Assembly (NCBI GenBank): GCA_025456425.1
Contig: JALOKP010000008.1
Location: 552-64,551, forward strand
From: Acidobacteriota bacterium
GTDB lineage: Bacteria; Acidobacteriota; Polarisedimenticolia; J045
Direction of reading: 5' to 3'
DNA: 64,000 bases
Shown: piece by piece, positions 17,074 to 35,515 of the stretch
Layout: each line of letters starts with the position of its first letter
Numbering within the stretch: the stretch's first letter is position 1
Program-made: the position numbers and the translations under genes
Notes under the pieces: model-generated
What the model saw: the letters and a program-made list of their open reading frames with translations, nothing else
What the model was told of the DNA's origin: nothing
Databases searched by the model: none

Positions 17074-17802
17074 ATGAACCAGCCCTCCGCCCAGGCCAAC
17101 ATCACCGTCCCGGTCGTCGTCGGCGGGCTGATCGGCGCCGCGCTCGGGGTCGTTCCGCCCTGCTGCTGCTGTTGCCTCAACACGGTTCTGGCCGGCGCGA
17201 TCGCCGGAGCGATGTTCGCGCGCGCAGCGGGTTTCGTTCCGATCGAGCGAGGCGCCATGATCGGGTCCCTGGCGGGGGCGGTGGCGGGCGCGGGAGGTGC
17301 CGTGACGGACTCCCTGCGCCAGGCGGCCTTCCGGCCCTGGTTCGAGGGCTGGGTCGACCAGGTGGCGCGCTACGGCGACTCGGAGGCGCGCGAAATGCTG
17401 GAGCAGCTTGGCGCGTGGGAGGGCGGGGGCGGTCCGGGCTGGTTCCTGGCCGGGCTGGCCTTCAACATCGCCATCGGCGCGGTTCTCGGCGCGCTGGGCG
17501 GAATGCTCGGTGTGGCCCTGATGCGGAAGCAGCCGCCGCCAGCCCCGTCGTATCCTCCTCCGCTGCCCCCCCAGCCGCCGACCTACCCCCCGCCGCCCGG
17601 GGCCCCGGTGGCTGCGCCGGCGGCACCCTGGCCGCCCGCCCCACCGCCGCCGGCCGACCCGTCCGGCTCCGCGGGACCGCCTCCGCCCGCACCGCCGGCC
17701 CAGGAATCGCGGATCGCGGGGGGCGGGTCGGCTGCCCCGTGGCCGCCGGCCGGGGGAACACCGGACAACGCCGACCCATCGGGGGGCGGCCGCGCGGGCT
17801 GA
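17074..17802 (+). CDS. Membrane protein with a CCCCC run and a Pro-rich C-terminal tail
   Basis: ATG at 17074 (residue 49 of ORF 16930..17802). Gly/Ala-rich TM segments. PPCCCCCLN at 17161-17175. C-terminal approximately 90 aa is Pro-rich. Confidence 0.5.
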   Translation: MNQPSAQANITVPVVVGGLIGAALGVVPPCCCCCLNTVLAGAIAGAMFARAAGFVPIERGAMIGSLAGAVAGAGGAVTDSLRQAAFRPWFEGWVDQVARYGDSEAREMLEQLGAWEGGGGPGWFLAGLAFNIAIGAVLGALGGMLGVALMRKQPPPAPSYPPPLPPQPPTYPPPPGAPVAAPAAPWPPAPPPPADPSGSAGPPPPAPPAQESRIAGGGSAAPWPPAGGTPDNADPSGGGRAG

Positions 17803-19087
17803 GCGGGGAGGGGCTGGCGGAAGCGTGTGGGAATCGAACCCACCCGTGACCGGTGCGACCGACCACGCAACGGTTTTGAAGACCGCGGGAGGCACCAGCC
17901 CCCGTGCGCGCATTCTGCGCGTTCGGCGGACTGTTAGTGGACTGTTTCCGCTCGGCGCTGTCTCCGAGCCGCGCGACCAGCGCCGGGTCAACCGCCCCCC
18001 CGCGGCGGCGAAAGTAGCGCTCGGTCGTGAGCACGGTCGAATGCCCGAGCCAGTCCCGCAGGACCTTCGTCGGGACCCCGGCCTCGGCGCACCAGGTCCC
18101 GAACCGATGCCGCAGCCCGTGGAGCCGTGACGTCTCCCGCGGGCGGCCGGGCTCCCCGGTCGGCTCGACCGGCCGGAGCGCCGGCGTCGCCGCCCGCCGG
18201 GCGTCCGCCCAAACCCGCTCGGCCATGTACTGCAACCCCTCAACCGTCCCGATCCCGGCGACGATCTGCCCCACGCGCCCGGGCCAGGAGACCCCCTCCA
18301 GCGCCCGCGCGAGCCGCTCCGTCAGGATCGGGACCGTCCGCGCCCGCCCCGACTTCGGGCGGTCTGTCTCGTCTCGCACCGCGACGTGGATCGCCCCGTG
18401 CGGGGAGAGCCCCTCGACCGGGCCGAGCGTCAGATCCTCCCACCGGAGCCGGAGGATCTCCCCGCGGCGCAGCCCAGCGTCGCCGGCCAGCAGGATCACG
18501 ACCAGCCGGCGCGGGTCGGCGCTCGCCCGGGCGGCCTCGATCAGCCGGGAGTATTCCGCTTCCGAGACCGCCTCCGGCTCGCTCCGCTGCACCAGCCGCG
18601 GGCGCTTGACCTTGCAGGGCGGCGCCGCGACGTGCTCCTGCTCCTCGGCGAGCTGGAACAACTGCGACAGCCGGTCGAGCTGCTTGCGGATGCTGGACGT
18701 CGAGAGCCCGGCGTCGCGCATCGTCTTGACCCACGCGGACACGTCCGCCTTGCGGATGCGGGCGACGGGACGCGGCCCCCAATACTCGACCAGCCGGGCC
18801 AGCTCCCACTTGTACCCGCGCAACGTCGCCGCGGTGTAGACGCGATCCGTGCCGGCCTCCCAATGCTCGACCAGACGATCCGCCAGCGCCTTGACGGTGA
18901 TCGCCCGCGCCGGCGTCAGGTCCACCGGCAGCCCGGCCGCGGCGCGGTGCTTCTTCTTCCGCTCGGACGCGAGCCAGTCTTCCGCCTTGCGGGCGCTCGG
19001 GAACGACTTCGCGCGGCGCTTGCCGGCGATGGTGATATAGGCCCGGTGCCCCGTTTTCTCCTGGCGGATGAACCCGTCGCCGCGCAT
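17462..19087 (-). CDS. int: Tyrosine recombinase (phage integrase); the ORF runs through attL and the tRNA
   Basis: Catalytic signature: AGLRRGEILRLRW (Arg), HGLRHRFGTW (H-x-x-R), GHSTVLTTERY (His, Tyr358). First in-frame stop is at 17462, 183 codons after the Tyr. Confidence 0.9.
   Translation of the reverse strand: MRGDGFIRQEKTGHRAYITIAGKRRAKSFPSARKAEDWLASERKKKHRAAAGLPVDLTPARAITVKALADRLVEHWEAGTDRVYTAATLRGYKWELARLVEYWGPRPVARIRKADVSAWVKTMRDAGLSTSSIRKQLDRLSQLFQLAEEQEHVAAPPCKVKRPRLVQRSEPEAVSEAEYSRLIEAARASADPRRLVVILLAGDAGLRRGEILRLRWEDLTLGPVEGLSPHGAIHVAVRDETDRPKSGRARTVPILTERLARALEGVSWPGRVGQIVAGIGTVEGLQYMAERVWADARRAATPALRPVEPTGEPGRPRETSRLHGLRHRFGTWCAEAGVPTKVLRDWLGHSTVLTTERYFRRRGGAVDPALVARLGDSAERKQSTNSPPNAQNARTGAGASRGLQNRCVVGRTGHGWVRFPHASASPSPLSPRGRPPMGRRCPVFPRPAATGQPTRPPRSAIPGPAVRAEAVPRSRTGRPAAVGRAARVPPAQPPGPRAAGGRSAAGGAAEEDTTGLAAAASASGPHRAFRPARREPRRWRC
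17815..17913 (-). tRNA. selC: tRNA-Sec (anticodon UCA), attL hybrid copy: nt 5-99 native-like, nt 1-4 replaced by element sequence
   Basis: Minus-strand features: 6-bp D stem GGGGGC/GCCTCC with 4-nt loop TGGT; anticodon loop CTTCAAA (TCA = complement of 17877-17879); 9-bp extra arm GTGGTCGGT-CGC-ACCGGTCAC; T arm GTGGG-TTCGATT-CCCAC; 3' ACGCTTCC-G-CCA ending at 17815. Confidence 0.8.
17873..17909. repeat. attL core: 37-bp direct repeat identical to 29126..29162
   Basis: GTTTTGAAGACCGCGGGAGGCACCAGCCCCCGTGCGC occurs exactly twice. Flanking bases differ on both sides. Confidence 0.9.
17925..17946 (+). promoter_or_regulatory. Candidate integrase arm-type sites (left arm): GGCGGACTGTT-A-GTGGACTGTT
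   Basis: Tandem 10-11-bp repeat 16-37 bp inside attL. The same motif pair occurs at 29013..29034 in the same orientation. Confidence 0.5.
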
Positions 19088-19489: not shown

Positions 19490-19753
19490 CTACTGCAGCC
19501 CCTCCGGCCCGCGGACCAGGCTCTGCTCGAGCAGGGCCTCCGAGATGAACGGGGGCTTCCCGATGCGCACGACCAGCCCCTCGTCGCGCAACCGATCGAA
19601 CAGCGCCGCGACGATGGCCGCCGTCTCGGCCCAGGTCCGCCCCTGCCGGGCGCACTCCTCGAGCACCGCCGGGAGCGTCTGCGAGAAGATCTTCGCCCCG
19701 GCGCGATTGAGCTCCTCCAGCGCCTCGGCGTCGCTCTTGCCCCGGCCGCTCAC
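19490..19753 (-). CDS. Hypothetical element protein (87 aa)
   Basis: 4-nt overlap with the upstream TMP-like gene. Balanced composition (MSGRGKSDAEALEELNRAGAKIFSQTLPAVLEE...). Confidence 0.5.
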   Translation of the reverse strand: MSGRGKSDAEALEELNRAGAKIFSQTLPAVLEECARQGRTWAETAAIVAALFDRLRDEGLVVRIGKPPFISEALLEQSLVRGPEGLQ

Positions 19754-21813
19754 CGCTGGAACCTCGCGGCGTCGCTGCGCTCGACCTGCTTCAGCTTCCG
19801 GCCCAGCGTCCGGAGCGAGTCGGAGTCGATGAAGGCGCCGTGGACGTGGATCACCTGGCCGGTCGACTGGTCATGCGTCACGCTGCTGCTGTTATTGTTC
19901 GTGATCGACTGCGTCGCCGCCGCCAGCCGCTTCGGGACCGGCCCGATCCGCAGCCCATCCGCGAACCCCCGCGACGTCATCTCGATGTAGTCCTGCGCCC
20001 AGCGCCGGCCGCCGTGGTAGGCCATCCGGTCGTTCACCGGGTCGTCGAACCCCTTCCCGGCGCTTCCCGGGTTGGCCGACTTGATCTTCTGGATCTGGAC
20101 CAGGCCGGCGGCGATCATCAGCGCCGCGGCAGCGTGCCCCCACGGCGTCATGCCGTAGGTCTTGTAGGTCTGCAGCACGGCCAGCGCCGTATTGATCACC
20201 GCCTCGGCGATCGCGAGCGCCTTGTTCTGGCCGAAGATCCCGGACAGGGCGCCGGCCACCACCTGCGCGTACTGCAGCCAGAACTCGGCCCGCTCCTTCG
20301 TGCTCATCTTCTCCAGGTCAGTCATCGCCGCCTGGTGGGACCGGGACCGGGCCTCGATCGCGTTGTTCCACTTGGTGCGGATCGCAGCCGTGTCCGCTCC
20401 GAGCGCCTCGGCCGCCGAGATCTCCCGATCGCGCTGCTCCTCGAGCGCCTGGATCTCGGCCTCGGCGATCTTGTCCAGCGTCTCCTTGACGATCGCAACC
20501 TTCTCGTCGGAGATGTACCAGGCCCCCTCGGTCTGCATCTCCAAGGACTGATTGAGCAGCTCGGCCTCAGACTCCAGCGCCGCAGCCTGCGCGTCGCGCT
20601 CGACCTTCCACCGCTCGAGTACCTTCTGGGTGACCTCGTCGGCGTACCCGACGATGAGATCGTGAACGGCCTTCTCCCCGGCCAGCCGATCGGCTCGCAC
20701 CTTCTCCGCAGCCTTGGCCGCTCGACCCAGGCTGGCCGCCGCCCGGTCCCCGGTCCGCTCCAGCTCCTCGGCCGCCTTCTTCTGGGCCGCCGCCGCCGCC
20801 TCCGCGTCTTTCTCCGCCCGCTTCAGAACCTCGCCCAGCTTCTTGCCGATGCCCTCCATCTCATCGGTCAGGCCACGAGCTGCCATCGCCTGCTTGAATG
20901 CCTCGACGTTCTTCGTGACGTCCTCGACGGAATCGGCGGCCCCGGACCAGATGTCCGAAATGGTCTTGGCGCTGTCGGTGATGTCCTTGCCGAGCAACGC
21001 CCGCCCGAGATTCCAGAACGCGACGCCCACGACGTTGGTCACCGCGACCACCCGCTCGAGCGCCCAGACCAGACCGCCGATCAGATACGCCGAGAGCTTC
21101 CAGATTCCCTCGCCCAGCTGGCCGGCCTGGTCTCCCAGCCCGTCCCACTGCGACTTGAGGAACGTGACCCCGTTGCCCGCCTTCTCCTGCTCGGCCAGGT
21201 ACTCCTCGAGCCGGCCGCTCAGCAGGTCGATCACCTTCGCCTGGTCGGCCGCCGTCTCGCCCAGGGCCTGCACGTCGAGCCCGAGCTTCCGCGCTGCCTG
21301 AGACCAGCGGTTCCCGAACAGGTCGGCGACCAGGTCGGCCGCCTCGCTCATCTCGATCACCTGGGACCGGCTGACCGCGACGGCCAGCGAGACCGCCCCC
21401 ATCGCCGCCTCGAGGTCCCCGGTCAGGTTCAGGAACTTCTGGAACGCCGGCAGCGTCTCGTCGTCGACGATCCCCGTCCCGAGCGCGATCTGCTGGAAGA
21501 ACGCCTGCAGCCGCGGCAGCGCCTCATCGGTGTCGATGCCGAACTTCCGCATCGCTTCACCGACCGCCCGCATCCGCTTCTCGAACTCGATCCAGTCCTG
21601 CGTCGCCTTCGTCAGGAACCCGAAGACGGCAAGCGGCGCCAGGTAGGTGCGGAGGGTAGCGCCGACGAACTCCCCGGCCTTCCCGAGACCCACCATCGCG
21701 GCCCGGGTGGTGTTGACCTCGGACTCCAGCTTCTTCAGCCGGGCCGAGGCGTCGAGCAGACCCTTCTCCTTCAGGATGAACTCGACGATTCCCTGGACGC
21801 GCGGATCAGCCAT
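19750..21813 (-). CDS. Phage tail tape-measure-like protein
   Basis: 687 aa. The N-terminal region resembles the TMP core (ATQDWIEFEKRMRAVGEAM...). Long Ala/Glu/Lys coiled coil, then Gly/Ala hydrophobic segments near the C-terminus (VVAGALSGIFGQNKALAIAEAVINTALAVL). Confidence 0.55.
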   Translation of the reverse strand: MADPRVQGIVEFILKEKGLLDASARLKKLESEVNTTRAAMVGLGKAGEFVGATLRTYLAPLAVFGFLTKATQDWIEFEKRMRAVGEAMRKFGIDTDEALPRLQAFFQQIALGTGIVDDETLPAFQKFLNLTGDLEAAMGAVSLAVAVSRSQVIEMSEAADLVADLFGNRWSQAARKLGLDVQALGETAADQAKVIDLLSGRLEEYLAEQEKAGNGVTFLKSQWDGLGDQAGQLGEGIWKLSAYLIGGLVWALERVVAVTNVVGVAFWNLGRALLGKDITDSAKTISDIWSGAADSVEDVTKNVEAFKQAMAARGLTDEMEGIGKKLGEVLKRAEKDAEAAAAAQKKAAEELERTGDRAAASLGRAAKAAEKVRADRLAGEKAVHDLIVGYADEVTQKVLERWKVERDAQAAALESEAELLNQSLEMQTEGAWYISDEKVAIVKETLDKIAEAEIQALEEQRDREISAAEALGADTAAIRTKWNNAIEARSRSHQAAMTDLEKMSTKERAEFWLQYAQVVAGALSGIFGQNKALAIAEAVINTALAVLQTYKTYGMTPWGHAAAALMIAAGLVQIQKIKSANPGSAGKGFDDPVNDRMAYHGGRRWAQDYIEMTSRGFADGLRIGPVPKRLAAATQSITNNNSSSVTHDQSTGQVIHVHGAFIDSDSLRTLGRKLKQVERSDAARFQR

Positions 21814-22408
21814 CGGTCAATCTCCTGTCTTGTAAGGGTTGATGCGCCTGGTCCGCGGCCCGGAGCTCCTCGGCCAGGGCCCGGTGCTCGGCCAGCAGCC
21901 GGTCGCGCTCGGAGGAGAGCAGGGACGGGTTTCGCAGCGCGTTCCACAGGTCGACCATCCGGGCGTGCCGCGGGTCGGGTGCCGGCCGCTCGCGCCGCGG
22001 GCGGCTGGGCGGCGGCGGGGCGGGCGGCTCCGGCTCACCGTAGAGCTCGCGCTTCAGCCGCTCGGCCGCGGCGAGCTCCGTCCGCCGGACCACTTCCCGG
22101 GAGAGCTGGAAGACGACGGCGGTCTCCTCAAGACTCCAGCCGGCGAAGCGCAGCGACACGACCGCGACCTCGCGCAGGGAGAGCTCGCGCATCGCGACGG
22201 CCAGCTTACGGCGTCGCTCGCGCTCCGCGGCCTCCAGCTCCGGCGACGGGCCCGACGACGGCTGGAGCTCGCCCAGCGTCGCGCCGTCCGGGTCGTCGTC
22301 ACTCGCCGGCGCGTCCAGGCTGGTCGTCTGCTGGTAGCGGTACAGCGGGTCGCCGAGGATCGTGCGGATCTGCTCGGCCCGCTCGGCGAGGGTGCGTTTC
22401 GTGCTCAT
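21806..22408 (-). CDS. Sigma70 region-4-like HTH protein (possible late regulator)
   Basis: ATG at 22408 (MSTKRTLAERAEQ...). HTH segment LSLREVAVVSLRFAGWSLEETAVVFQLSREVVRRTELAAAERLKREL. No region 2 seen. Confidence 0.5.
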   Translation of the reverse strand: MSTKRTLAERAEQIRTILGDPLYRYQQTTSLDAPASDDDPDGATLGELQPSSGPSPELEAAERERRRKLAVAMRELSLREVAVVSLRFAGWSLEETAVVFQLSREVVRRTELAAAERLKRELYGEPEPPAPPPPSRPRRERPAPDPRHARMVDLWNALRNPSLLSSERDRLLAEHRALAEELRAADQAHQPLQDRRLTDG

Positions 22409-22460
22409 GCGATCCGCTCCCTCCAGACGGCGCTTTCGGGCGCGACGATCTCCGCGCGGG

Positions 22461-22652
22461 TCACGCCGCCGTCCCCCCGCGCCGGCGCACGTCGGCCGGC
22501 AGCGTCGCCGGATCGACCTCCTCGGCGTCGCCGCGCTCGATGAAGACCTCGGCGATCGCACGCGGCAGCCGCTCGATGACGCCCACGTCCACGCCCACGA
22601 CGGCACGCCGCCACCGGATCCACGCGGCCCACAACTTCGCCGGCGGGCTCAT
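22461..22652 (-). CDS. Hypothetical element protein (63 aa)
   Basis: ATGA overlap with the upstream ORF. More protein-like composition than the overlapping 22405..22632 ORF. Confidence 0.35.
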   Translation of the reverse strand: MSPPAKLWAAWIRWRRAVVGVDVGVIERLPRAIAEVFIERGDAEEVDPATLPADVRRRGGTAA

Positions 22653-23508: not shown

Positions 23509-24834
23509 CTAGGAGCGCGTGGCGAGCGTGACGAAACTGCTCAGCGTGTCGGAGCCGACCGCCGGCGTGACCGCGGATGCGAGCCACGGCTGGCCGTCCA
23601 CCGCGACGGTGAACCGGAAGGCCGTCTCCGCGTAGATAAACCGGACGTGCATGGACAGGTCGTTCTTGGCCGCGCCCAGACCCAGCGCGTAGGACTGCGG
23701 GTCCCACAGGCTCAGATCGCCGACCGTGCCGAGCGTCTGCATTCGGTCGGACCAGATGATCCGGCGGCCCAGCAGCGTCTCGGTGGCCGGATCGAACTGC
23801 CCGGTCAACTTCCAGATTTGCGGCGCCGTGCTCGGATGCGCGAGCCAGACTGCGGTCGGCCAGCACTCCGGCAAGAGCCGGGCGCACATCTTCGCGGTGT
23901 TGTCGCTGGTGATCGTCGCCGCCGCCTGGCCGCCTTCCTTCGACACCGTCACCAGGGCGCTGCTGTTCATCAGTCCGAGCGGCTGGCCGGCCCCCGTGCC
24001 GGCGATGATCGCCGCGCTGAGCTTCGCGTCGATCACCCGCGCGGCCGCGGCCGTCAGGAACTCCCCGATGCCCGCACCCCCGTTGGCGATCATCCTGTCC
24101 GTGCAGTAGACCAGCGCGACCAACTGCTGCGGCTCCAGCTTGATCTGCCGGAACTTCGGCTTGCTCTCGGTGATCGCATCGGCTTCCGAGATCCAATAGG
24201 ACCGCAGCCCGCCGTACAGGGAACCGTCGACGCGCGAGGTCTCGGCGTTCGCGTTCAACGTCAGGGTGTCGCCGGTCACGGTGTACTGGTCGCACAGCGC
24301 GGCCAGCGAGGTCGCGCGGGCGTTGACCGCATCCCAGATGGCCGAGCTGAACTGCGGCGCAACCAGGAACCCGCCGTCGCTCGGGATCTGCCGGCCGAGC
24401 CCGGTCGGGTTGGCGGCCAGCAGCAGCCGCGGGTCGAGCGTCGGCTTGACCGCCGCGGCCATCACCCCGGAGAAAAACGCGTCCGCCGACGGCCAGTCCC
24501 CGACCTCCTGCGCCCGCTGCGCCATCGGCGTTCGCCGCGGCTTCGGGGCCGGCGCCGCCGCCGGCAGCGTCGTCAACCGAGCCTCGATCCGTTCGAAGAT
24601 GCTCTGCTGCAGGTCGGCGTCGTACCGGCCGGCCGCGGACAGCACCAGCTCCGCCGCCTGCCGAGCGATGGCGGCCGAGCCGCCCCCTCGCGCTGCGACC
24701 CGTCCCGCTGCCTGTTCGATCTGCTCATCCGTGATGCTCGTCATCCTGCTCATGATTCGGTCCCTCTCTGCGCCCTCGGGCGCGGTGATCGGGGCCGTCT
24801 CTCGATTGCGCAGGCACCCCGGGTTGGTGCTCAT
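23509..24834 (-). CDS. HK97-family phage major capsid protein
   Basis: The family call is by eye from segments such as RQIKLEPQQLVALVYCTDRMIANGG, AIIAGTGAGQPLGLMN and RFTVAVDG. The N-terminal approximately 100 aa is helical and delta-domain-like. Alternative start at 24753 has a better SD (GAGGG). Confidence 0.85.
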   Translation of the reverse strand: MSTNPGCLRNRETAPITAPEGAERDRIMSRMTSITDEQIEQAAGRVAARGGGSAAIARQAAELVLSAAGRYDADLQQSIFERIEARLTTLPAAAPAPKPRRTPMAQRAQEVGDWPSADAFFSGVMAAAVKPTLDPRLLLAANPTGLGRQIPSDGGFLVAPQFSSAIWDAVNARATSLAALCDQYTVTGDTLTLNANAETSRVDGSLYGGLRSYWISEADAITESKPKFRQIKLEPQQLVALVYCTDRMIANGGAGIGEFLTAAAARVIDAKLSAAIIAGTGAGQPLGLMNSSALVTVSKEGGQAAATITSDNTAKMCARLLPECWPTAVWLAHPSTAPQIWKLTGQFDPATETLLGRRIIWSDRMQTLGTVGDLSLWDPQSYALGLGAAKNDLSMHVRFIYAETAFRFTVAVDGQPWLASAVTPAVGSDTLSSFVTLATRS

Positions 24835-24835
24835 G

Positions 24836-25255
24836 TCAGCGAACCAAAGACGCGATCGTCGCCTCGCGCTCGCTCATCGGATCGACCCGCTTCGGCTCGG
24901 GCAGCCGCGCCCGGCCGGCAGGGCTCAAGCCGAGCGCCGTCGCGTACGCCAGGACCACGCGGTGCTCGGCCCGGATCGCCGCCCGGTTGGGCCGCGCCGC
25001 CCCCGTCTGCCGGCGCAGCTCGGCCACCGCCAGCGCGTACCCGCACAGGACCTCGACCGACTCGGCCCCAGCCCGTCCGACCAGCGCCGGGAGCGTGGCG
25101 CGATAGACCTCTTGGGCCTCTGGGGGCAACCAGGAAGGCGCAGTCGTGGGGAGCGGGCGATCGCTCGGCGAGATCGGCTCGACCTTGCTGGCGAGCCCGT
25201 GGGGGCCACAACGGGCCGCGGTGTGCGACTTGGCGATCGGGCCTCGGGTGCTCAT
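24836..25255 (-). CDS. Phage terminase small subunit, P27-like
   Basis: ATG at 25255 preceded by GGAGG. The layout MSTRGPIAKSH...PSWLPPEAQEVYRATLPALVGRAGAESVEVLCGYALAVAELRR resembles P27-family TerS. Placed directly upstream of the capsid gene. Confidence 0.65.
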   Translation of the reverse strand: MSTRGPIAKSHTAARCGPHGLASKVEPISPSDRPLPTTAPSWLPPEAQEVYRATLPALVGRAGAESVEVLCGYALAVAELRRQTGAARPNRAAIRAEHRVVLAYATALGLSPAGRARLPEPKRVDPMSEREATIASLVR

Positions 25256-25425
25256 CGGGGACCTCCTGTCAGGGCCGAATCCGAACTTCCGTGCGCGTGC
25301 AAATGGGGCGCCGGCCGTTGCTCGCGGACACGCCCGGAAAAAACGACCCCCCCCAGGGCCGGGCAGCCGGGCACCGCGCAGGGGCGCAGGACGCCGGTCA
25401 CGGGGTCGGCCTCGGCGCAGGGGAC

Positions 25426-25540
25426 GGGTGCAACTTCGGGGAGGGTGCAGGGGTGCAACGGGTGCAGCCCCTATATAGGGGCCGCTGCACCCGTCCGTTA
25501 CGGGTGCAATGCACGGGTGCTGCACCCGTTGCACGGGTCC
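25426..25540. repeat. Iteron-like array of GGGTGCA/TGCACCC heptamers around a GCCCCTATATAGGGGC palindrome (candidate ori or operator)
   Basis: Forward copies start at 25426, 25443, 25451, 25460, 25502 and 25515 (variant). Inverted copies at 25486 and 25521. 16-bp perfect palindrome with a TATATA core at 25467-25482. Confidence 0.6.
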
Positions 25541-27604
25541 TCACTTCGGCACCCGGTAAGCCAGCGGGCGCTTGGTCTTGCCCGACTTGTCTGCGTCCGT
25601 CGCGGGGCGGAATGTCCCGTCCACGTCGCAAACGAACAGCTCTAGCTCGGCCCGGTGGGCGGCAATGTAGCCGTCGACGGTTCGTTCCTTCTTACCGAGC
25701 CGCGCCGCCAAGTCGGCCTTGGTGAGCGGGACATCGCTGGCGCCGAGGGTTGTAAGCAGTCCATCCGCGGGGCGCTTGCGCCGCGTGAGCTTGGCGGCCT
25801 CGTCGCCCGATAGTTCGCGCTGGTAGACCAGGGCAACGGGCGTTTCGTGGTCCGGCTTCCCGAGCGCCACCGCGGTTTGGTCGGGCCACAGGAAGACTAG
25901 GTGTTTGCCCGAGCCGCGGCGCCGGCCGACCCGCTGCTTGTTGGTCGAGACGACGAACGCCGACCCGCCGGCGGGAAGGTGAGGCACGTCGCCCGCCGGG
26001 CGTAGGAAGATCACCGCGTCCGAGATCCGGCGGAAGGCGTCCGAGCCGTGAATCAGCCCGGATTCGTCCGTCGTCGGGTCGTAAGCATAGGCCAGCTTGT
26101 TTGTATGGTGGTTCAGCCCGAGCCCGCAGGGGCCGCCCGCGGCCGCCCGCAAGGGTGCCATGTGCTCGCGGTAGAACCGCGTCACGTCCTCGGCGTCCTT
26201 GAACGACTTGATATCGCTGGTCGCCTGCACCGTATCGGCAAGGATCAGCTCGGGGCGGAAGTCGGCGACCAGCCGGAACAAGCGGGCGCGAGCCACGGGG
26301 TCGCCGAACCAGAACGCGGGGTCGGCCACGATTCGCAGGTTGTCGGCAAGCAGCGCGGGGTCCAGATCGTTGCCGGCAAACAGCATTTCCGCCCGGTCGG
26401 CCAGGTCGCCCGGATCGTCTTCCGCGAAGATTCCGAGCACCCGGACGGGCCGTGCGATCTGCCACTCGCCGCAGACCCGGCCGCCCACGGCGGCCTTGGC
26501 GCCCAGCTCCAGCGAGAACCACGTCTTGCCGGTCTCGGACGGCGCGACGATCAGGGTGCGCCCGTGCAGCCGCACCCCGGGCAACAGCAGCTCAGGGACG
26601 GACCGCTCGCGGTGCGGCAGGGTCGCCGCGGTGAAGTAGGGCAGGGGCTCGACCGTCTCGGGGTCCGGCGCTGCCGGCCGCCCGAATTTCGCGACGGCCG
26701 ATTCGGCCAGGTTCCGCAGCTCGGCGTCCGTCTTCCGCTCGCCGGGGAGCGCGTCGGCCCACGCGCGGAGCGCGGGCGCGATCCCCGCCACGGGCACGCC
26801 GGCGGACGCCAGCGCGACCGCCTTGCCCCGGAGCCAGTCGTGGCGGGACTGACCTTCGCGCGGGCCCCAGTCGCCGCTCGCGGGCACGTAGGGCGCCTCG
26901 CGGGGAGCGGCGCCGGCGGTGCCGCTCTCCGGCAACAGGTCGAAGTCGGACGGGTTGTAGCGGACTGCGTCCTCGTCCACGATCTGCGCCATCGGCCGGT
27001 CGGGCGTCTTGTGGTTCCGGGTGCCCGGCACGCGGAGGATGCGAGCCAGGTCCGCGGTGTTGTCTACCGTCCACCCGCGGCGCTTCGCGCGGTCGCGCAG
27101 GAACGCCTGCACGCGCTGAACGACCGCCTTCGCGGCCGCCCGATCGGCTTCTGACTCGATCGTCCACGGCTCGCGGTAGAGCCACCAGACGTGCAGACCG
27201 AACCCCGACGAGACGATCAGCGAAGGCACCGGGAGCCCGTCCAGCAGCGTGAGCGCGTCCCCGATCGTCGGCGGCAGCGCCGGGCATTTGTGCGCCGTCG
27301 CGTGCGCCACGTCCACGTCAGCCCAGATCCCGGGGACCGCCAAGACGGACGATTCGCTCCCGCGGCCCTCGGACGGGACCGTGGCGTGCGAACAGCACCC
27401 GAGATAGACGTCACCGTGCGCCGATTCGGCTGCCGCGTGGCGGGCGAGCGCGTCCAGGTCGCCGCCGGCGAACCAGCTCGTTGCCGGCGTGCGATCCCTG
27501 AACCGGGTGACGGCCAGGTGCCCGGGGGCGCCATCCGGCCAGATCGCGGTAAGGAACGCGCGGGCCTCTTCGGCCGGCATCTTGCGGACCGCGGGCGCGG
27601 TCAC
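25541..27604 (-). CDS. Bifunctional primase-polymerase / RecA-like helicase replication protein
   Basis: N-terminal prim-pol motifs (SSGFGLHVWWL, RVPGTRNHK). Central P-loop LIVAPSETGKTWFSLELGA and Walker B-like ELILADTV. C-terminal winged-helix-like tail. Confidence 0.8.
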   Translation of the reverse strand: MTAPAVRKMPAEEARAFLTAIWPDGAPGHLAVTRFRDRTPATSWFAGGDLDALARHAAAESAHGDVYLGCCSHATVPSEGRGSESSVLAVPGIWADVDVAHATAHKCPALPPTIGDALTLLDGLPVPSLIVSSGFGLHVWWLYREPWTIESEADRAAAKAVVQRVQAFLRDRAKRRGWTVDNTADLARILRVPGTRNHKTPDRPMAQIVDEDAVRYNPSDFDLLPESGTAGAAPREAPYVPASGDWGPREGQSRHDWLRGKAVALASAGVPVAGIAPALRAWADALPGERKTDAELRNLAESAVAKFGRPAAPDPETVEPLPYFTAATLPHRERSVPELLLPGVRLHGRTLIVAPSETGKTWFSLELGAKAAVGGRVCGEWQIARPVRVLGIFAEDDPGDLADRAEMLFAGNDLDPALLADNLRIVADPAFWFGDPVARARLFRLVADFRPELILADTVQATSDIKSFKDAEDVTRFYREHMAPLRAAAGGPCGLGLNHHTNKLAYAYDPTTDESGLIHGSDAFRRISDAVIFLRPAGDVPHLPAGGSAFVVSTNKQRVGRRRGSGKHLVFLWPDQTAVALGKPDHETPVALVYQRELSGDEAAKLTRRKRPADGLLTTLGASDVPLTKADLAARLGKKERTVDGYIAAHRAELELFVCDVDGTFRPATDADKSGKTKRPLAYRVPK

Positions 27605-27840
27605 CGCCGGGCCCTTTCGCCCTCGGCCAGCGCCAGGTCGAGCTGCCGCGACTTGTCAGGGTCCCAAGGTTCCGCGGTCGGATCGTAGCCCGCGCCCAGC
27701 AGCGCCAGGTCGAGAGCCGCGCGGTGAATCTCGGCCAGCGCGGAGCCGCGATCGCTGCCGTTCTGGTAGGCGACCGCGAGCTGTAGGACCGCGGCGATTG
27801 CTCGGCGCCGGGCCGCTTCCCACGACGGGGGGCCGCTCAC
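27601..27840 (-). CDS. Hypothetical element protein (79 aa)
   Basis: 4-nt overlaps with both neighbours. No family recognised. Confidence 0.45.
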   Translation of the reverse strand: MSGPPSWEAARRRAIAAVLQLAVAYQNGSDRGSALAEIHRAALDLALLGAGYDPTAEPWDPDKSRQLDLALAEGERARR

Positions 27841-28154
27841 GACTTCGCCGCCGCGAGCCCAACGCGGAACGCGGCCCGGGCCTCGGCGAGCTGCCGGCGG
27901 ACGCGACCGCGGGACCAGCCGAGCGCCGCCGCGACGTCTCGCTCGCTGGCCCCGTAGTAGTCGACGGCCAGCAGTAGGCGGCGCCGCTCGGCGGGCAGCT
28001 CGCGCAGCATGGCGCGGACCGCGCGGGCCAGCTCCAGCGCCGCGACCACTTCGTCCGGCTGCGGGGCTTGAACGTCAGCCGCGGCCGCGAGCGGCTCGGC
28101 GAAGCCCCACGATTCCAGCGCGTCGAGCTGGTCGAGCCGCACCGCCGCGCTCAC
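27837..28154 (-). CDS. Sigma70 region-4-only HTH protein
   Basis: 105 aa. LRELPAERRRLLLAVDYYGASERDVAAALGWSRGRVRRQLAEARAAF matches the ECF-type region 4 layout. No region 2. Confidence 0.55.
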   Translation of the reverse strand: MSAAVRLDQLDALESWGFAEPLAAAADVQAPQPDEVVAALELARAVRAMLRELPAERRRLLLAVDYYGASERDVAAALGWSRGRVRRQLAEARAAFRVGLAAAKS

Positions 28155-28780
28155 CGGGCGCCCCCCTTCGGCGGGATGTAGAACTGCGCGGGGAGCGCGG
28201 CCACGTCGGCTTCGCGGTAGAGGATCCGCCGGCCGAACTGGACGAAGCCGAGCAGCCCCTCGGCGCGGAGCCGGCGGAGCGTTCGGGTCGAGAGCCGCAG
28301 GGCCTCGGCCGCCTCGCGCTCCGTCAGCAGACCGCCGGCCGCGAACCCGAACGCGGGCAGCGCGAGCGCCGCGCCAGCGCCGAGGAAGCCGCCGACCAGG
28401 AGAGCCGCGAAGACGATCAGCAGCGCCGCCGCGACGGGCAGCGCTAGGGGAGGGTCGGCGCTACTTGGGCCGTCGTCTCCCGGGCTGCCGCCCGACGACG
28501 CGGCCCGCGATCGGTGAGGCTGCCGGCCGCCGATGCGGCGCGGCGCGGTCCGCCGGTCGAGCCGGACGGTCAAGCGCCGCGGGAGCCGGGCGTGGACGAT
28601 GCGCCGGGCCTCGCGCCGCGCCTTGCGCCGGATGGCGTGGCGCAGCTCGGGGCGTGTCATCAGGAAGGCGGACGGGCTGACGGTCTCAGCTTCGGGCGGG
28701 GCGGCCAACAGCGCCGCGACGATCCCGAGCGCTTGCTCGATCTGAGCTTGGGTCTGCTGACGGTCTCGTTTGCTGGTCAA
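28151..28780 (-). CDS. Excisionase-family (MerR-like HTH_17) DNA-binding protein with an internal TM hairpin
   Basis: C-terminal LLTEREAAEALRLSTRTLRRLRAEGLLGFVQFGRRILYREADV. It is preceded by two hydrophobic helices (LALPVAAALLIVFAALLVGGFLGAGAALALPAFGFAAGG) and a basic N-terminal region. Confidence 0.55.
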   Translation of the reverse strand: MTSKRDRQQTQAQIEQALGIVAALLAAPPEAETVSPSAFLMTRPELRHAIRRKARREARRIVHARLPRRLTVRLDRRTAPRRIGGRQPHRSRAASSGGSPGDDGPSSADPPLALPVAAALLIVFAALLVGGFLGAGAALALPAFGFAAGGLLTEREAAEALRLSTRTLRRLRAEGLLGFVQFGRRILYREADVAALPAQFYIPPKGGAR

Positions 28781-29012: not shown

Positions 29013-29034
29013 GGTGGACTGTTGGCGGACTGTT
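29013..29034 (+). promoter_or_regulatory. Candidate integrase arm-type sites (right arm): GGTGGACTGTT-GGCGGACTGTT
   Basis: Tandem repeat matching 17925..17946, 92-113 bp inside attR. Confidence 0.5.
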
Positions 29035-29125: not shown

Positions 29126-29162
29126 GTTTTGAAGACCGCGGGAGGCACCAGCCCCCGTGCGC
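29126..29162. repeat. attR core: 37-bp direct repeat identical to 17873..17909
   Basis: Exact second copy of the 37-mer. Confidence 0.9.
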
Positions 29163-29166
29163 TTCC
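29126..29166 (-). tRNA. selC: Orphan 5' fragment of tRNA-Sec (nt 1-41) with the native upstream region
   Basis: The minus strand reads GGAAGCGCAC-GGGGGCTGGTGCCTCC-C-GCGGTCTTCAAAAC and then diverges into element DNA. GGAAGCG pairs perfectly with the 3' strand CGCTTCC found at 17819-17825. Confidence 0.8.
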
Positions 29167-29363
29167 GTGGGCCAACCACAGGAGGAATCATTGTACCCAC
29201 GGTTTCCGGCCCGGGAGGCCGCGCGCCGGGGGGACTGGACCCGGACCCCTCGCCCGGGTTAGATTCTCCCGCCCATCGCGTGGATGGGGGGACAGGGCCC
29301 GGCACCTGCCGGGACAGTGAAGGCCCTTCGGGGCGAGGCAGCGACCGGGTCCAACGTCTGATC

Positions 29364-29939
29364 ATGGGTAAGCGACTCTTCGTAGGGAACCTCCCGTACA
29401 GTGCCACCGCGGACGACCTGCGGGCGCTGTTCGCGGAGCTCGGTGAAGTCACCGACGTCCACATCGTGATCGACCGCGAGACCCAGCGTCCGCGCGGTTT
29501 CGCCTTCGTCTCGTACGCTTCGGACGAGGTCGCGGCCAAGGCGGCGCAGGAGATGAACGGCCGCTCGTTCGGCGGCCGGCCGCTCGTGGTGAACGAGGCG
29601 CGCGAGCGCGGCGAGGGCCCGCCCCCGGGTGCGAGGCCGTCCGGCCCGCGTCCCGGCGGCTTCGGCGACCGACCCCCGCGCCCCGGCGGCTTCGGCGACC
29701 GCCCGCCGCGCCCGCCCGGCAGCGGCCCCGGCGGGCCGCGTCCCGGCGGTTTCCGCGGCCCCCGCGGCGCGCCGATGCCGCCGCCCGAGCCGCTGCCGAC
29801 GGAAGAGCGCCGGCCGCGCACCGCGCCCAAGAAGAAGGTCGACTACGACCGCGACCGCACCCCTTCCACCCGGCCCCGCGAGGACGAGAAGGAGAAGGGC
29901 GGCGGGAGCTGGCGGCAGTGGATCGACGACGACGAGTAG
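29364..29939 (+). CDS. RRM-domain RNA-binding protein with a Gly/Arg/Pro-rich tail
   Basis: RNP2 LFVGNL and RNP1 RGFAFVSY, followed by GGFGDRPPRP repeats and an acidic end. Confidence 0.85.
   Translation: MGKRLFVGNLPYSATADDLRALFAELGEVTDVHIVIDRETQRPRGFAFVSYASDEVAAKAAQEMNGRSFGGRPLVVNEARERGEGPPPGARPSGPRPGGFGDRPPRPGGFGDRPPRPPGSGPGGPRPGGFRGPRGAPMPPPEPLPTEERRPRTAPKKKVDYDRDRTPSTRPREDEKEKGGGSWRQWIDDDE
29652..29711 (+). repeat. 30-bp tandem repeat (2 copies) encoding PGGFGDRPPR
   Basis: CCCGGCGGCTTCGGCGACCG(A/C)CC(C/G)CCGCGC occurs twice in tandem inside the RRM gene tail. Confidence 0.6.
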
Positions 29940-29942
29940 CCG

Positions 29943-30923
29943 CTAGTCGCTTCCAGGGTGTGCCGGCAGGCGCGCCCACTCTTCAACGCCGCGCTCGGGT
30001 TCCAGCTGGATCGTCGTGTGGTGGATGTCGAACCGCGCGGCGAGCAGCCGGTTGACGCGGGCCAGCGTCGCCTGCGCGTCCTCCCCGGTCCGCAGCCGGA
30101 CGTGGGCCGCCAGCGCGACGCGTCCCGGCGTGACGCACCAGACGTGCAAGTCGTGGACCGCCGCCACCCCCGCTTCTCCCAGCAGCGCGCGCTCGATCGC
30201 GGCGGCGTCCTTCCCCGCCGGCGCGACGTCGAGCAGCACCTCGGCCGCCTCGCGCAGGATCCGCCAGGCCGACAGGCCGATCAGCGCGGCGACGGCGAGG
30301 CTGGCCAGGGGGTCGGCCCAGGTCCAGCCCAGCGCGAGTACGGCCAGCGCGGCGAGGATCGCGGCGCCGGAGCCGAGCAGGTCGCCCAGCACGTGGATCA
30401 GCGCCGCGCGCAGGTTGATGTTGTCGGCGCCCTCGCCGCGGGACGGGTGTGTGTGGCCGTGGCCGCCCCCCGCGCGCAGCACGAAGAAGACGACGAGGTT
30501 CACGGCGAAGCCGATCGCCGCGACCAGCAGCATCAGCCGCGCGTCGATCTCCACCGCGCGCAGGCCGGCGAGCCGCAGGACCGCCTCGTAGGCAATCCGC
30601 GCGACCAGCAGCCACAGCAGGACCGCGTTGGCCAGGGCGGCCAGCACCTCGGCGCGGTGGAAGCCGAAGGTGTAGCGCGCCGTGTGGGGCCGCGCCGCGA
30701 CCACGGCAGCGATGAGGGCCAGCACCAGCGCCGCCGAGTCGGCCAGCATGTGCACGGCGTCGGCGAGCAGCGCGAGCGAGCCGGAGAGGAAGCCCCCGAC
30801 CGCCTCGACCGCGGCGAAGGCCAGCGTCAGCGCGAGCCCGAGCGCGAGGCGTCCGCGGGCGCTTCGCCCGCGAGCGGCACCGTGGTCGTGGCCCGCGTGG
30901 TCGTGACCGGTGTGGTCGTGCAT
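29943..30923 (-). CDS. Cation diffusion facilitator family transporter (CzcD/ZitB-like)
   Basis: His-rich N-terminus (MHDHTGHDHAGHDH), six TM helices, motifs LLADAVHMLADS and HVLGDLLGS, C-terminal cytoplasmic domain. Confidence 0.9.
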   Translation of the reverse strand: MHDHTGHDHAGHDHGAARGRSARGRLALGLALTLAFAAVEAVGGFLSGSLALLADAVHMLADSAALVLALIAAVVAARPHTARYTFGFHRAEVLAALANAVLLWLLVARIAYEAVLRLAGLRAVEIDARLMLLVAAIGFAVNLVVFFVLRAGGGHGHTHPSRGEGADNINLRAALIHVLGDLLGSGAAILAALAVLALGWTWADPLASLAVAALIGLSAWRILREAAEVLLDVAPAGKDAAAIERALLGEAGVAAVHDLHVWCVTPGRVALAAHVRLRTGEDAQATLARVNRLLAARFDIHHTTIQLEPERGVEEWARLPAHPGSD

Positions 30924-30988
30924 GATGCAGACGCAGCCTAGCCCGCCGGTCGCGGCGGGGGCAAGGCGTTCGCGACGCGGGAGGGGAG

Positions 30989-31807
30989 ATGAGGCTGGGT
31001 GCGACAGGGCTGGTCGCAGCGGTAGCCGTCACGGCGGCGTTCGCGGGGCGGGCGACCGCGCCCCCCGCGCTGCCCGCCAGCGCGACCGTGAGCGAGGTGA
31101 AGGACGGCGACACGCTCGTCGTCGAAACCGGGGGGAAGCCGCTCACCGTCCGGCTGATCGGGATCGACACGCCCGAAGAACGTCACCCCGAGGCCGAGCC
31201 GCAGTACCTCGCGGCCGAGGCGCATACCGAGCTGGCGCGGCTGGTCGGCGGAAGGACGGTGACGCTCGTCGCCGACCCCGGGGCCGGCGAGGATCGCTAC
31301 GGGCGGGCTCTCGCCTACGTCGAGACGCCGGACGGGCGGGATGCCGGGGCCGTGCTGATCGAGGCCGGCCTGGCGCGGGCTTTCGAGCGCTACGACTACG
31401 CGCGCAAAGCCCGCTATCGCGGACTCGAAGCGGCGGCGCGCGCGGCCGGGCGCGGGGTCTGGCAGGAGGGCGGGCTGGCCGAATTGCGCTGGATCGTCGC
31501 CTCCGGCCGGGGGGCGATCGAAGTCCACGCGATGACCGGCGGGCGCTTCGCCGTGGTCGTCGACGGCTGGGCGCGGGCCGGGGTCAAGGGGCGCTCGCGT
31601 GCGCGGGACGAGCGCGGCTCGCTCGACGACGCGATCTGGGAGGCGCACCGAGCGCTCGGTGCGAAGCGCCACGACCCGTCGCGTGCGCTCGAGATCCTCG
31701 CGGCTGCGGGGTTCGTGCCGCTCAGCGCCCCGGCGCCGGTGCCAGCAACTCCAGCGCCTCCGGAGCGACCCGTCGCTCCGCCACCGCCGTCCCGTCGAGG
31801 GTCGTGA
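30989..31807 (+). CDS. Thermonuclease (SNase-like) family protein
   Basis: Signal-like N-terminus. VKDGDTLVV...VRLIGIDTPE...DRYGRALAYV...GLARAF matches the staphylococcal nuclease fold motifs. Confidence 0.75.
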   Translation: MRLGATGLVAAVAVTAAFAGRATAPPALPASATVSEVKDGDTLVVETGGKPLTVRLIGIDTPEERHPEAEPQYLAAEAHTELARLVGGRTVTLVADPGAGEDRYGRALAYVETPDGRDAGAVLIEAGLARAFERYDYARKARYRGLEAAARAAGRGVWQEGGLAELRWIVASGRGAIEVHAMTGGRFAVVVDGWARAGVKGRSRARDERGSLDDAIWEAHRALGAKRHDPSRALEILAAAGFVPLSAPAPVPATPAPPERPVAPPPPSRRGS

Positions 31808-33752: not shown

Positions 33753-33838
33753 AGCGTCCGGCCCGGGCCCCGCGCGACGGGACCCGGGCCGGGGTCGAGG
33801 AGAGGGAGGAAGGAGGAGGGTCAGGTCAGAAGGTCATC

Positions 33839-34279: not shown

Positions 34280-34456
34280 CGTCGTATCCCTCCTCGGCCA
34301 GAGGGACAGCAAGACCGATGCCACGCGCCGTCACGGGCGCGCGCGGCTCGTCCCGGACGTTTCCGGATCGGCGTGGATTCCGGGATTCTCGCCGTGCATC
34401 CGGAATCCGGCAGCTGGCCGGACAGAGTGACCGAACCGGCGGCCGGCCGGGCGGGC

Positions 34457-35494: not shown

Positions 35495-35515
35495 CGTCGG
35501 TCTCCCCGGCGCGCG

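What the first reader, a model, noticed from the sequence alone, without database searches (positions are those of the whole stretch)
17815..17913. selC (tRNA-Sec) is split by the element on its 5' side, and the attL copy loses acceptor nucleotides 1-4 and its upstream region
A complete 99-nt tRNA-Sec forms only if GGAA at 29166..29163 is joined through one copy of the 37-bp repeat to 17872..17815. It would have an acceptor stem GGAAGCG/CGCTTCC, a 6-bp D stem with 4-nt loop, a UCA anticodon, a 9-bp extra arm and an encoded CCA. The repeat corresponds to tRNA nt 5-41, the 5' half up to the anticodon loop. Known tRNA-targeting elements duplicate the 3' part and so regenerate the gene. Here the attL hybrid begins AUGC instead of GGAA. 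That gives A:C, U:C, G:U and C:U at pairs 1-4, so the acceptor stem should not form. The native upstream region, with a TACAAT box at 29190-29195 on the minus strand, stays at attR 11 kb away. Integration is therefore predicted to inactivate selC and excision to restore it. That would resemble a phage regulatory switch acting on selenoprotein synthesis. A Sec-dependent gene lies in the same window at 47120..47359.
Basis: partly seen in the sequence, partly recalled or inferred. Interest (0 to 1): 0.85.

Follow-up and report, generated by a model that had tools for sequence, protein, structure and literature searches.

The report
Reversed-polarity satellite-like element in selC
An 11-kb phage-like element sits on the unusual 5' side of the selenocysteine tRNA gene and normally rebuilds that gene; the broken copy in this window comes from an extra 18-base deletion seen in no other assembly of the same DNA.

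Summary
An exact 37-bp direct repeat (17873-17909 / 29126-29162) equals tRNA-Sec nt 5-41 and brackets an 11.2-kb integrase-bearing element. The attL copy lacks acceptor nt 1-4 and is predicted not to form its acceptor stem. An in-silico excision gives a perfect 99-nt tRNA-Sec. A related genome (L079) has the empty site.

The interpretation that integration inactivates selC as a switch is not supported. Four public assemblies of the same DNA, otherwise identical over about 21 kb, carry 18 more bases at attL (TAGAATCGCCCACGGAAG). These supply the integrase stop codon, a -10-like box, a leader and tRNA nt 1-5, so attL there is an intact selC (73 bits against 63 in the window). Five further integrase lineages (38-56% identical) also abut an intact GGAAGCG selC start, and one contig shows the attP form.

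The element therefore belongs to the rare but known class that integrates on the 5' side of a tRNA gene and regenerates it. The window's lesion is a private secondary deletion or a sequence artefact. It is one of three window-only deletions, all multiples of three.

The parts
17815..17915 (-). attL hybrid selC (tRNA-Sec, UCA). This is the window's allele, lacking the true nt 1-4(5) and the upstream leader.
   Evidence: ARAGORN. Rfam RF01852 gives 63.1 bits with three non-standard acceptor pairs. Acceptor pair probability is 0.21 or less.
17873..17909 (-). attL copy of the 37-bp identity block (tRNA nt 5-41). The core lies at its 3' end, in the anticodon loop.
   Evidence: the repeat finder family D7, 100% identical.
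17908..17909 (-). Point of the window-private 18-nt deletion. Public assemblies have TAGAATCGCCCACGGAAG here, which comprises the integrase stop TAG, a -10-like TAGAAT, the leader and tRNA nt 1-5.
   Evidence: blastn and direct comparison with L003-L006.
17909..19087 (-). Tyrosine integrase, 393 aa in the public version. In the window the ORF has lost its stop and reads on to 17462 (541 aa).
   Evidence: Pfam PF00589 at 56.9 bits and PF02899. Translation. P0001 is 393 aa ending NAQNA*.
17925..17946 (-). Two tandem AACAGTCCRCY motifs, putative arm-type integrase sites (P arm), inside the integrase 3' end.
   Evidence: the DNA search found 4 exact copies only at the two element ends. 0 of 100 shuffles reached the observed count.
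19750..21813 (-). 687-aa element protein of unknown function.
   Evidence: High GC3. No Pfam or PHROG hit.
21806..22606 (-). Sigma-70 region-4-like regulator.
   Evidence: Pfam PF04545, phrog_351.
23509..24834 (-). HK97-type major capsid protein.
   Evidence: Pfam PF05065 at 109.7 bits, phrog_10.
24836..25534 (-). Small-terminase-like protein (weak match).
   Evidence: phrog_83 at 31.6 bits.
25541..27604 (-). Primase-polymerase / AAA_25 replicative protein.
   Evidence: Pfam PF13481, phrog_2478.
27837..28154 (-). Small sigma-r4 / HTH regulator.
   Evidence: Pfam PF08281.
28151..28780 (-). HTH_17 (excisionase / AlpA-like) protein.
   Evidence: Pfam PF12728, phrog_66.
29013..29034 (-). Two tandem AACAGTCCRCY motifs, putative arm-type sites (P' arm).
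29126..29166 (-). attR: the displaced native selC 5' half (nt 1-41).
   Evidence: Contiguous with the 3' half in the empty-site genomes L079 and L034.
29167..29195 (-). Native selC leader and TACAAT box (29195..29190), left at attR.
   Evidence: The same GGGTACAAT...GTGGTTGGCCCAC lies upstream of the intact selC in L079.
47120..47359 (-). SelW-like (Rdx family) selenoprotein gene with an in-frame TGA (CTAU motif). It is a client of selC.
   Evidence: There is a hairpin after the UGA, but it is not better than shuffles.

Best explanation
**What it is**

An ~11.3-kb phage-satellite-like integrative element is inserted at the anticodon-loop region of selC in an Acidobacteriota genome. It encodes a tyrosine integrase, an Xis-like HTH protein, a primase-helicase, a small-terminase-like protein and an HK97 capsid protein. 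It uses the rare reversed polarity: its attP carries the 5' half of selC (about nt -6 to 41) directly after the integrase stop codon.

**How integration works**

Integration moves the native promoter, leader and 5' half to attR. It joins the element-borne 5' half to the resident 3' half at attL, which regenerates an intact selC. That copy must then be transcribed from element DNA. The transcript could be read-through from the integrase gene, or it could start at the TAGAAT box whose TAG is the integrase stop. This step is inferred.

**What differs in the window**

An 18-nt deletion (TAGAATCGCCCACGGAAG) has removed the integrase stop, the -10-like box, the leader and tRNA nt 1-5. The attL selC is therefore predicted to be non-functional, and the integrase ORF runs through the tRNA. 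This lesion is secondary to integration and private to the window. Whether it is a real mutant lineage or a sequence or assembly artefact cannot be decided here.
For: **Insertion**
- The flanking repeat is exact.
- L079 (95.5% identical flank) and L034 have an uninterrupted selC. Their alignments to the window jump from 29126 to 17909 and overlap by the 37-bp repeat.

**Regeneration**
- L003 (NCBI), L004 (JGI), L005 and L006 (Logan) are 100% identical to the window around attL apart from the 18-nt gap. Their attL is a perfect 99-nt tRNA-Sec scoring 73.0 bits, the same as the empty-site gene.
- The 7 nt TAGAATC occur only at attL, so the public version is not a chimera with attR.
- The public integrase length (393 aa) matches its homologs (390-412 aa).

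**Family**
- Integrases P0002 (56% identical), P0003 (43%), P0005 (39%), P0006 (39%) and the one in L091 (38%) all lie upstream of, and co-directional with, a selC 5' end that begins GGAAGCG.
- In three of these lineages the stop codon is 3 nt from +1.
- L152 shows integrase-TAA-CTT-selC nt 1-40 followed by non-tRNA DNA, which is an attP form.

**Recombination architecture**
- Four exact AACAGTCCRCY motifs lie in two tandem pairs flanking the core.

**Promoter hint**
- In 26 of 93 relatives a TAnnnT box ends at -8 or -7 from selC +1. The element's TAGAAT ends at -8.

**Defect in the window**
-.
- The window-specific 541-aa integrase and the 187-aa protein are in no public assembly.
Against: - No reads are available, so neither the deletion nor excision is verified.
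- The sigma-70 consensus scan finds no full promoter at the public attL. In three related lineages there is no -10-like box at the same position. The source of selC transcription is therefore unproven.
- The public assemblies may share read sets (the same project), so they are independent assemblies but not necessarily independent samples.
- ARAGORN and Rfam still accept the window allele, so loss of function is a structural prediction only.
Confidence: 0.8

Rival explanations
1. The 18-nt deletion, like the other two window-only deletions, is an assembly, consensus or processing artefact. The organism's real attL is the intact selC seen in the public assemblies, and nothing is inactivated.
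For: - The window differs from the public contigs only by deletions of 54, 51 and 18 nt, with essentially no SNPs over more than 40 kb.
- None of the resulting proteins is on record.
- A sister MAG has its own 87-nt deletion, which removes the conserved start of a receiver domain. This suggests that such gaps arise in this data set.
Against: All the deletions are multiples of three, and at least two are codon-aligned. That pattern is what selection on real variants would give, and it is not typical of assembler errors. No reads were available to test this.
Confidence: 0.45
2. The deletion is real. This lineage carries a silenced selC at attL while a pristine promoter and 5' half are stored at attR. 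Element excision is then the only route back to Sec decoding, making this a de facto excision-dependent switch that arose secondarily.
For: - In-silico excision within the remaining 37-bp identity rebuilds a perfect selC with its native promoter.
- The core and all four arm-type motifs are retained.
- L131 ends at exactly the last base shared by attR and attB, which hints at mixed occupied and empty sites in a sister sample.
- The genome encodes a selenoprotein.
Against: - The authenticity of the deletion is unverified.
- The integrase has lost its stop and gains a 148-aa tail, which may impair it.
- A single lesion is more simply read as decay than as regulation.
- A second selC elsewhere in the genome cannot be excluded.
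Confidence: 0.2
3. One reading: the element by design duplicates only nt 5-41, so integration itself inactivates selC and excision restores it (a phage regulatory switch).
For: In the window alone the identity block is nt 5-41 and attL is defective.
Against: - At least four assemblies of the same insertion have a 47-bp identity block (-6 to 41) and an intact attL selC.
- Five related integrase lineages and one attP-form contig carry the full 5' end.
Confidence: 0.04
4. The window's attL allele is still a working tRNA-Sec, using an alternative 9/4 acceptor/T geometry with mismatches. It would be transcribed by read-through from the integrase gene.
For: ARAGORN draws a 9-bp acceptor plus a 4-bp T stem, 13 bp in total as in tRNA-Sec. 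Rfam gives 63.1 bits, above the gathering score of 47.
Against: - Three of the nine acceptor pairs are mismatches, including pair 2.
- Acceptor pair probabilities are 0.21 or less, and the MFE disrupts the extra arm.
- The -10-like box is deleted.
Confidence: 0.07

Closest known systems
Integrative elements that recombine with the 5'-distal part of a tRNA gene. [quoted passage not shown]
   Same: A tyrosine integrase is used. attP carries the 5' rather than the 3' portion of the tRNA gene. The native promoter is displaced and the gene is regenerated from element DNA. PMC6563490 states that such cases exist but are considerably less frequent than 3' integration.
   Different: - The target here is selC, and the host is an Acidobacteriota.
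- The integrase stop codon abuts tRNA +1 (3-14 nt) in four lineages.
- The primary 2002 paper could not be read here, so a detailed comparison rests on its title and on how it is cited.
selC-targeting elements of Proteobacteria: retronphage phiR73, the LEE, SHI-2 and AGI-3 islands, and Burkholderia phage PhiE067.
   Same: The target gene is the same, and site-specific integrases are used. selC is a known hot spot (PMC7266877; PMC2704930).
   Different: Those elements integrate at the 3' end of selC (PhiE067: a 19-bp att at the 3' end). This family uses the anticodon loop and duplicates the 5' half.
Phage regulatory switches / active lysogeny (for example phi10403S in comK of Listeria; from my own knowledge).
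   Same: In the window allele only, the target gene is non-functional while the element is integrated, and precise excision would restore it.
   Different: In those systems disruption is intrinsic to integration. Here integration regenerates the gene, and the defect is a secondary 18-nt deletion of unverified authenticity.
Capsid-forming phage satellites (cfPICI-like; from my own knowledge).
   Same: It is about 11 kb and encodes an integrase, an AlpA/Xis-like HTH protein, a primase-replicase, a small-terminase-like protein and an HK97 capsid protein. No tail or lysis genes were detected.
   Different: No portal, protease or head-tail connector was recognised. A 687-aa protein and several small proteins are unassigned. 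No helper phage is known.
SSV1-type integrases, whose attP lies inside the integrase gene.
   Same: In the window allele the integrase ORF runs through the att core.
   Different: In the undeleted element the integrase ORF stops 8 nt before the identity block, and the catalytic Tyr is upstream of it. Integration does not split the gene.

Membership tests
tRNA-gene-targeting tyrosine-integrase element | Tyrosine recombinase with a catalytic domain, encoded at one end of the element. | tested here: met
   PF00589 at 56.9 bits and PF02899. The ..HGLRH..LGHS..TTERY motifs are present.
tRNA-gene-targeting tyrosine-integrase element | The element is bounded by direct repeats that are a segment of the tRNA gene. 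| tested here: met
   37-bp exact repeat in the window; 47 bp in the public assemblies.
tRNA-gene-targeting tyrosine-integrase element | An uninterrupted target (attB) exists in related genomes. | tested here: met
   L079 (95.5% identical flank) and L034.
tRNA-gene-targeting tyrosine-integrase element | The attP-borne fragment regenerates an intact tRNA gene on integration. | tested here: met
   Met in L003-L006 (99-nt tRNA-Sec, 73.0 bits) and in the related L001 and L091. It is not met in the window allele, because of the 18-nt deletion.
tRNA-gene-targeting tyrosine-integrase element | Excision to a circular attP form. | tested here: inconclusive
   L005's length is explained as a k=31 unitig, not a circle. 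L131 ends at the attR/attB divergence point. An attP-form contig exists only for a relative, L152.
Reversed-polarity (5'-distal) tRNA integration | The duplicated, element-borne segment is the 5' part of the tRNA gene, and the integrase lies next to the regenerated gene's 5' end. | tested here: met
   The same holds in five related lineages.
Reversed-polarity (5'-distal) tRNA integration | The native promoter is displaced and the element supplies transcription of the regenerated gene. | tested here: inconclusive
   Displacement is shown: the native leader and TACAAT are at attR, as upstream of selC in L079. For the element-supplied promoter, TAGAAT sits at the modal -8 position, but no full sigma-70 match is found. 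Read-through from the integrase gene is equally possible.
Phage regulatory switch (active lysogeny) | Integration itself disrupts the target gene. | tested here: not met
   The same insertion in at least four assemblies, and the related elements, leave selC intact.
Phage regulatory switch (active lysogeny) | Precise excision restores an intact gene. | tested here: met
   The in-silico attB is a perfect tRNA-Sec, identical to the L079 gene.
Phage regulatory switch (active lysogeny) | Regulated, reversible excision coupled to host physiology. | not testable with these tools
   Needs reads, PCR or culture.
Capsid-forming phage satellite (cfPICI-like) | A small element with an integrase, an AlpA-like protein, a replicase, capsid and packaging genes, but no tail or lysis module. 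| tested here: inconclusive
   Integrase, HTH_17, prim-pol/AAA_25, MCP and a weak TerS-like hit were found. No portal, protease or large terminase was recognised, and several ORFs are unassigned.
SSV1-type split-integrase integration | attP lies inside the integrase coding sequence, so integration partitions the gene. | tested here: not met
   In the public version the integrase stops at TAG, 8 nt before the identity block. Read-through occurs only in the window allele.

The most novel reading that the evidence does not exclude
The 18-nt deletion is real. It defines a lysogen lineage in which selC is silent (no -10 box, no acceptor stem), while an intact promoter and 5' half are archived 11 kb away at attR. 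Selenoprotein synthesis can then return only when the satellite-like element excises. That would be a regulatory-switch-like state which evolved secondarily from a gene-regenerating integration. More broadly, in this integrase family selC expression in every lysogen would depend on transcription from the integrase gene's 3' end.
Probability: 0.15. Interest if true: 0.6.

Novelty: new member of a known kind. Interest (0 to 1): 0.35.

Why it matters
**As found**

The finding corrects an attractive but wrong inference. The selC split is not what the element does.

**What remains useful**

Six integrase lineages, mostly from uncultured Acidobacteriota, target the 5' half of selC. Their integrase stop codon abuts tRNA +1. 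Reversed-polarity tRNA integration is documented but rare. A conserved family like this offers a way to study three things:
- how a displaced tRNA promoter is replaced;
- whether the tRNA is matured from the integrase transcript;
- whether Sec decoding in lysogens becomes dependent on a mobile element.

**Caution for annotation**

tRNA finders still call the deleted allele as tRNA-Sec.

Tried and rejected
1. **L005 as an excised circle.** L005 (11,284 bp) first looked like 11,253 + 31. I rejected this reading. With the public 47-bp repeat and 11,271-bp spacing, 11,224 unique bases plus 2 x 30 gives 11,284, which is an ordinary k=31 unitig broken at the repeat.
2. **Metagenome scans.** I ran two metagenome-contig scans, one for either attL variant and one for the strain-specific native leader. 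Both gave 0 hits, so that collection does not hold this strain and is uninformative.
3. **IMG/VR scan with the integrase.** It returned only integrases 25-29% identical, with no tRNA-Sec nearby.
4. **Sigma-70 and terminator scans at attL.** Nothing was found in the public or the window version.
5. **Exact-product look-ups.** The window's 541-aa integrase, the 187-aa protein and two other ORFs are not on record. The last two may only reflect my choice of start codon.
6. **Primary literature.** Williams 2002 and Zhao & Williams 2002 are not held.
7. **Public attL as a chimera with attR.** Rejected, because TAGAATC occurs only at attL.
8. **Slippage between GAATGCG and GGAAGCG as the cause of the deletion.** The end points do not fit; there is only 1 nt of microhomology.
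9. **Sec machinery in the window.** No selA, selB or selD was found. The rest of the genome could not be searched.
Full report
**1. The observation**

On the minus strand, 17915..17815 reads GAAUGCGCGCACGGGGG...CACACGCUUCCGCCA, and 29166..29126 reads GGAAGCGCACGGGGG...UCUUCAAAAC.
- The repeat finder reports one exact 37-bp direct repeat, at 17873-17909 and 29126-29162.
- ARAGORN finds one tRNA in the 64-kb window: tRNA-SeC(UCA) at 17815..17915.
- Joining 29166..29126 to 17872..17815 gives a textbook bacterial 8/5 tRNA-Sec of 99 nt. The attR and attP reconstructions give no tRNA.
- The attL copy is drawn only with mismatches at acceptor pairs 2, 4 and 8.
- Rfam RF01852 scores it 63.1 bits (gathering score 47) and flags three non-standard acceptor pairs. 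The intact gene scores 73.0.
- RNAfold gives acceptor pair probabilities of about 1.0 for the intact sequence and 0.21 or less for the window allele. In the window allele the 5' end mispairs into the extra arm.

The description is therefore correct for the window as given. One caveat is that detection tools still call the copy a tRNA-Sec.

**2. The interval is a real mobile element**

The window has 74.6% GC, so genes were picked by codon-position GC. All genes between the repeats are on the minus strand:
- a tyrosine integrase (19087 down to the att site; PF00589 and PF02899);
- a 687-aa protein of unknown function;
- a sigma-r4-like protein;
- an HK97 major capsid protein;
- a small-terminase-like protein;
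- a prim-pol/AAA_25 protein;
- a small sigma-r4/HTH protein;
- an HTH_17 excisionase-like protein.

This gene content resembles a capsid-forming phage satellite, but membership is not established.

Four exact AACAGTCCRCY motifs occur as two tandem pairs at 17925-17946 and 29013-29034. That is where arm-type integrase sites would lie, and 0 of 100 shuffles reach the observed count.

A scan of reference genomes for the selC 3' half returned L079, an Acidobacteriota MAG.
- Its selC is identical to the in-silico attB.
- Its flanks match window 36459..29126 at 95.5% identity and then jump to 17909..17227.
- The two alignments overlap by the 37-bp repeat.
- L034 shows the same pattern at about 81% identity.

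The insertion and its target are therefore confirmed.

**3. The decisive comparison**

The integrase as found in public data (P0001) is 393 aa and ends NAQNA*. In the window, however, the ORF has no stop before the att repeat and runs for 541 aa.

P0001 is carried by:
- NCBI GCA_025490975.1 (L003);
- JGI 3300037408 (L004);
- two Logan assemblies (L005, L006).

All four read ...CAGAATGCG TAG AATCGCCCAC GGAAGCGCACGGGGG.... The window reads ...CAGAATGCG CGCACGGGGG....

Over 21 kb, L003 and L004 differ from the window only by this 18-nt gap and by a 51-nt in-frame gap at window 15518, with no substitutions. Window 19943-40923 is 100% identical to them.

The public attL is a perfect 99-nt tRNA-Sec (73.0 bits). 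The true identity block is 47 bp, from -6 to nt 41.

The 7 nt TAGAATC are unique to attL, so the public junction cannot be a mis-join with attR. The 393-aa integrase also matches the lengths of its homologs.

The ancestral element therefore regenerates selC. The window has lost TAGAATCGCCCACGGAAG, which comprises the integrase stop, a -10-like box, the leader and tRNA nt 1-5.

**4. The family**

Six integrase lineages in all (including the window's own) sit immediately upstream of, and co-directional with, a selC 5' end that begins GGAAGCG:

| Integrase (locus) | Identity to window integrase | Layout |
|---|---|---|
| P0001 (public L003-L006) | 100% | TAG + 10 nt + GGAAGCG |
| P0002 (L001) | 56% | an extra ORF lies between; tRNA scores 70.3 bits |
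| P0003 (L147, L148) | 43% | TAA-CTT-GGAAGCG |
| P0005 (L150, L151) | 39% | TAA-AGG-GGAAGCG |
| P0006 (L152) | 39% | attP form, see below |
| integrase in L091 | 38% | tRNA scores 72.7 bits |

- L152 is a JGI contig in which integrase-TAA-CTT is followed by selC nt 1-40 and then by non-tRNA DNA. ARAGORN finds no tRNA there. This is an attP configuration, and it shows directly that attP carries the whole 5' half.
- P0004 (42% identical) abuts the 3' end of a different tRNA in the usual antiparallel way. Polarity therefore varies within the wider integrase family.

**5. How it most likely works**

*Shown:*
- Recombination takes place within the block that ends just after the anticodon loop.
- The native leader and TACAAT stay at attR.
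- attL combines the element's 5' half with the host's 3' half.

*Inferred:* transcription of the regenerated selC comes from element DNA.
- In 26 of 93 relatives a TAnnnT box ends at -8 or -7 from selC +1. The element's TAGAAT ends at -8.
- The simple sigma-70 scan finds no full promoter. Three related lineages have the stop codon only 3 nt from +1.
- Co-transcription with the integrase gene followed by RNase P processing is therefore at least as likely.

In the window allele, both the box and the acceptor 5' strand are gone, so that copy is predicted to be dead.

**6. Status of the deletion**

The window carries three private deletions relative to the public assemblies:
- 54 nt at about position 57;
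- 51 nt at 15518;
- 18 nt at 17908/17909.

A sister MAG has its own 87-nt deletion. All four are multiples of three, and there are almost no SNPs. The window-specific proteins are in no public assembly.

I cannot tell real strain variants from artefacts without reads. L131, from another JGI sample, ends at exactly the last base shared by attR and attB. That would fit a mixed population of occupied and empty sites, but this reading rests on how large-k assemblers behave (my own knowledge).

**7. Comparison with known systems**
- Integration into the 5'-distal part of a tRNA gene is known but uncommon (PMC6563490, citing Zhao & Williams 2002 and archaeal cases).
- Known selC-targeting phages and islands use the 3' end (PMC7266877).
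- The phage-regulatory-switch model fails its defining test here, because integration does not disrupt the gene.
- The SSV-type split-integrase model also fails, because the integrase stops before the core in the undeleted element.

**8. Verdict**
The polarity, the defect in this allele and restoration on excision all hold. The causal claim that integration inactivates selC does not.
- The element is a new member of a known, rare kind.
- Interest is moderate to low (0.35).
- The residual novel reading is a real, secondarily evolved, excision-dependent selC. I give it about 0.15 probability.

Noticed in passing
window ~57, 15518 and 17908/17909; window 12904-12990 versus L127: The window differs from public assemblies of the same DNA by private deletions of 54, 51 and 18 nt. 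A sister MAG (GCA_025491015.1) has its own 87-nt deletion, which removes the start of a receiver domain. All four are multiples of three, at least two are codon-aligned, and there are almost no SNPs. The cause is unknown: real micro-deletion polymorphism or an artefact.
   Followed up: partly
window 47120-47359 (-): A SelW-like Rdx-family selenoprotein gene with an in-frame TGA in a CTAU motif (Pfam, 66 bits). A GC-rich hairpin follows the UGA, but it is not more stable than shuffles (z = -0.63).
   Followed up: yes
L131 (JGI 3300037524, Ga0392392_0000467), last base; corresponds to window 29126: This 36.5-kb contig stops at exactly the last base shared by attR and an empty attB (..TCTTCAAAAC). 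That is what an assembly graph would do if occupied and empty sites coexisted in that sample.
   Followed up: no
window 14377-14525 (-): Three near-copies of AAC(T/A)GTCCGCC lie in an intergenic region outside the element. One forms the palindrome CTGTCCGCC-GGCGGACAG. They resemble the element's arm motif but look like regulator binding sites next to a sigma-54 activator gene.
   Followed up: no
window 17462-19087 (-): Because the stop codon is deleted, the integrase ORF reads through the att core and the whole tRNA-Sec, giving 541 aa instead of 393. Codon bias disappears after about 18000.
   Followed up: yes
L149 (Logan SRR28370465), end of contig: A 42%-identical integrase (P0004) abuts the 3' end of a different tRNA on the opposite strand, which is the usual polarity. 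Both polarities therefore occur within one integrase family.
   Followed up: partly
L150/L151 1341-4628 and L147 2317-5097: The related selC-5' elements carry defence-like cargo next to the integrase: AAA_13 plus a TIR_2 protein in L150/L151, and a DndB-like protein plus a D12 methyltransferase in L147.
   Followed up: no
window 29645-29764: Three copies of a 30-nt repeat (two adjacent, the third 60 nt further on; 77-93% identical) lie inside the RRM_1-domain gene located between attR and the CDF transporter gene.
   Followed up: no
L052/L066, L031/L053 and L029/L075 (genome-contig hits): Several MAGs have two contigs carrying the selC 3'-half pattern. This could mean a second selC, or 3'-side duplications made by ordinary selC-targeting elements. 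L029 and L081 have integrases on the 3' side.
   Followed up: no
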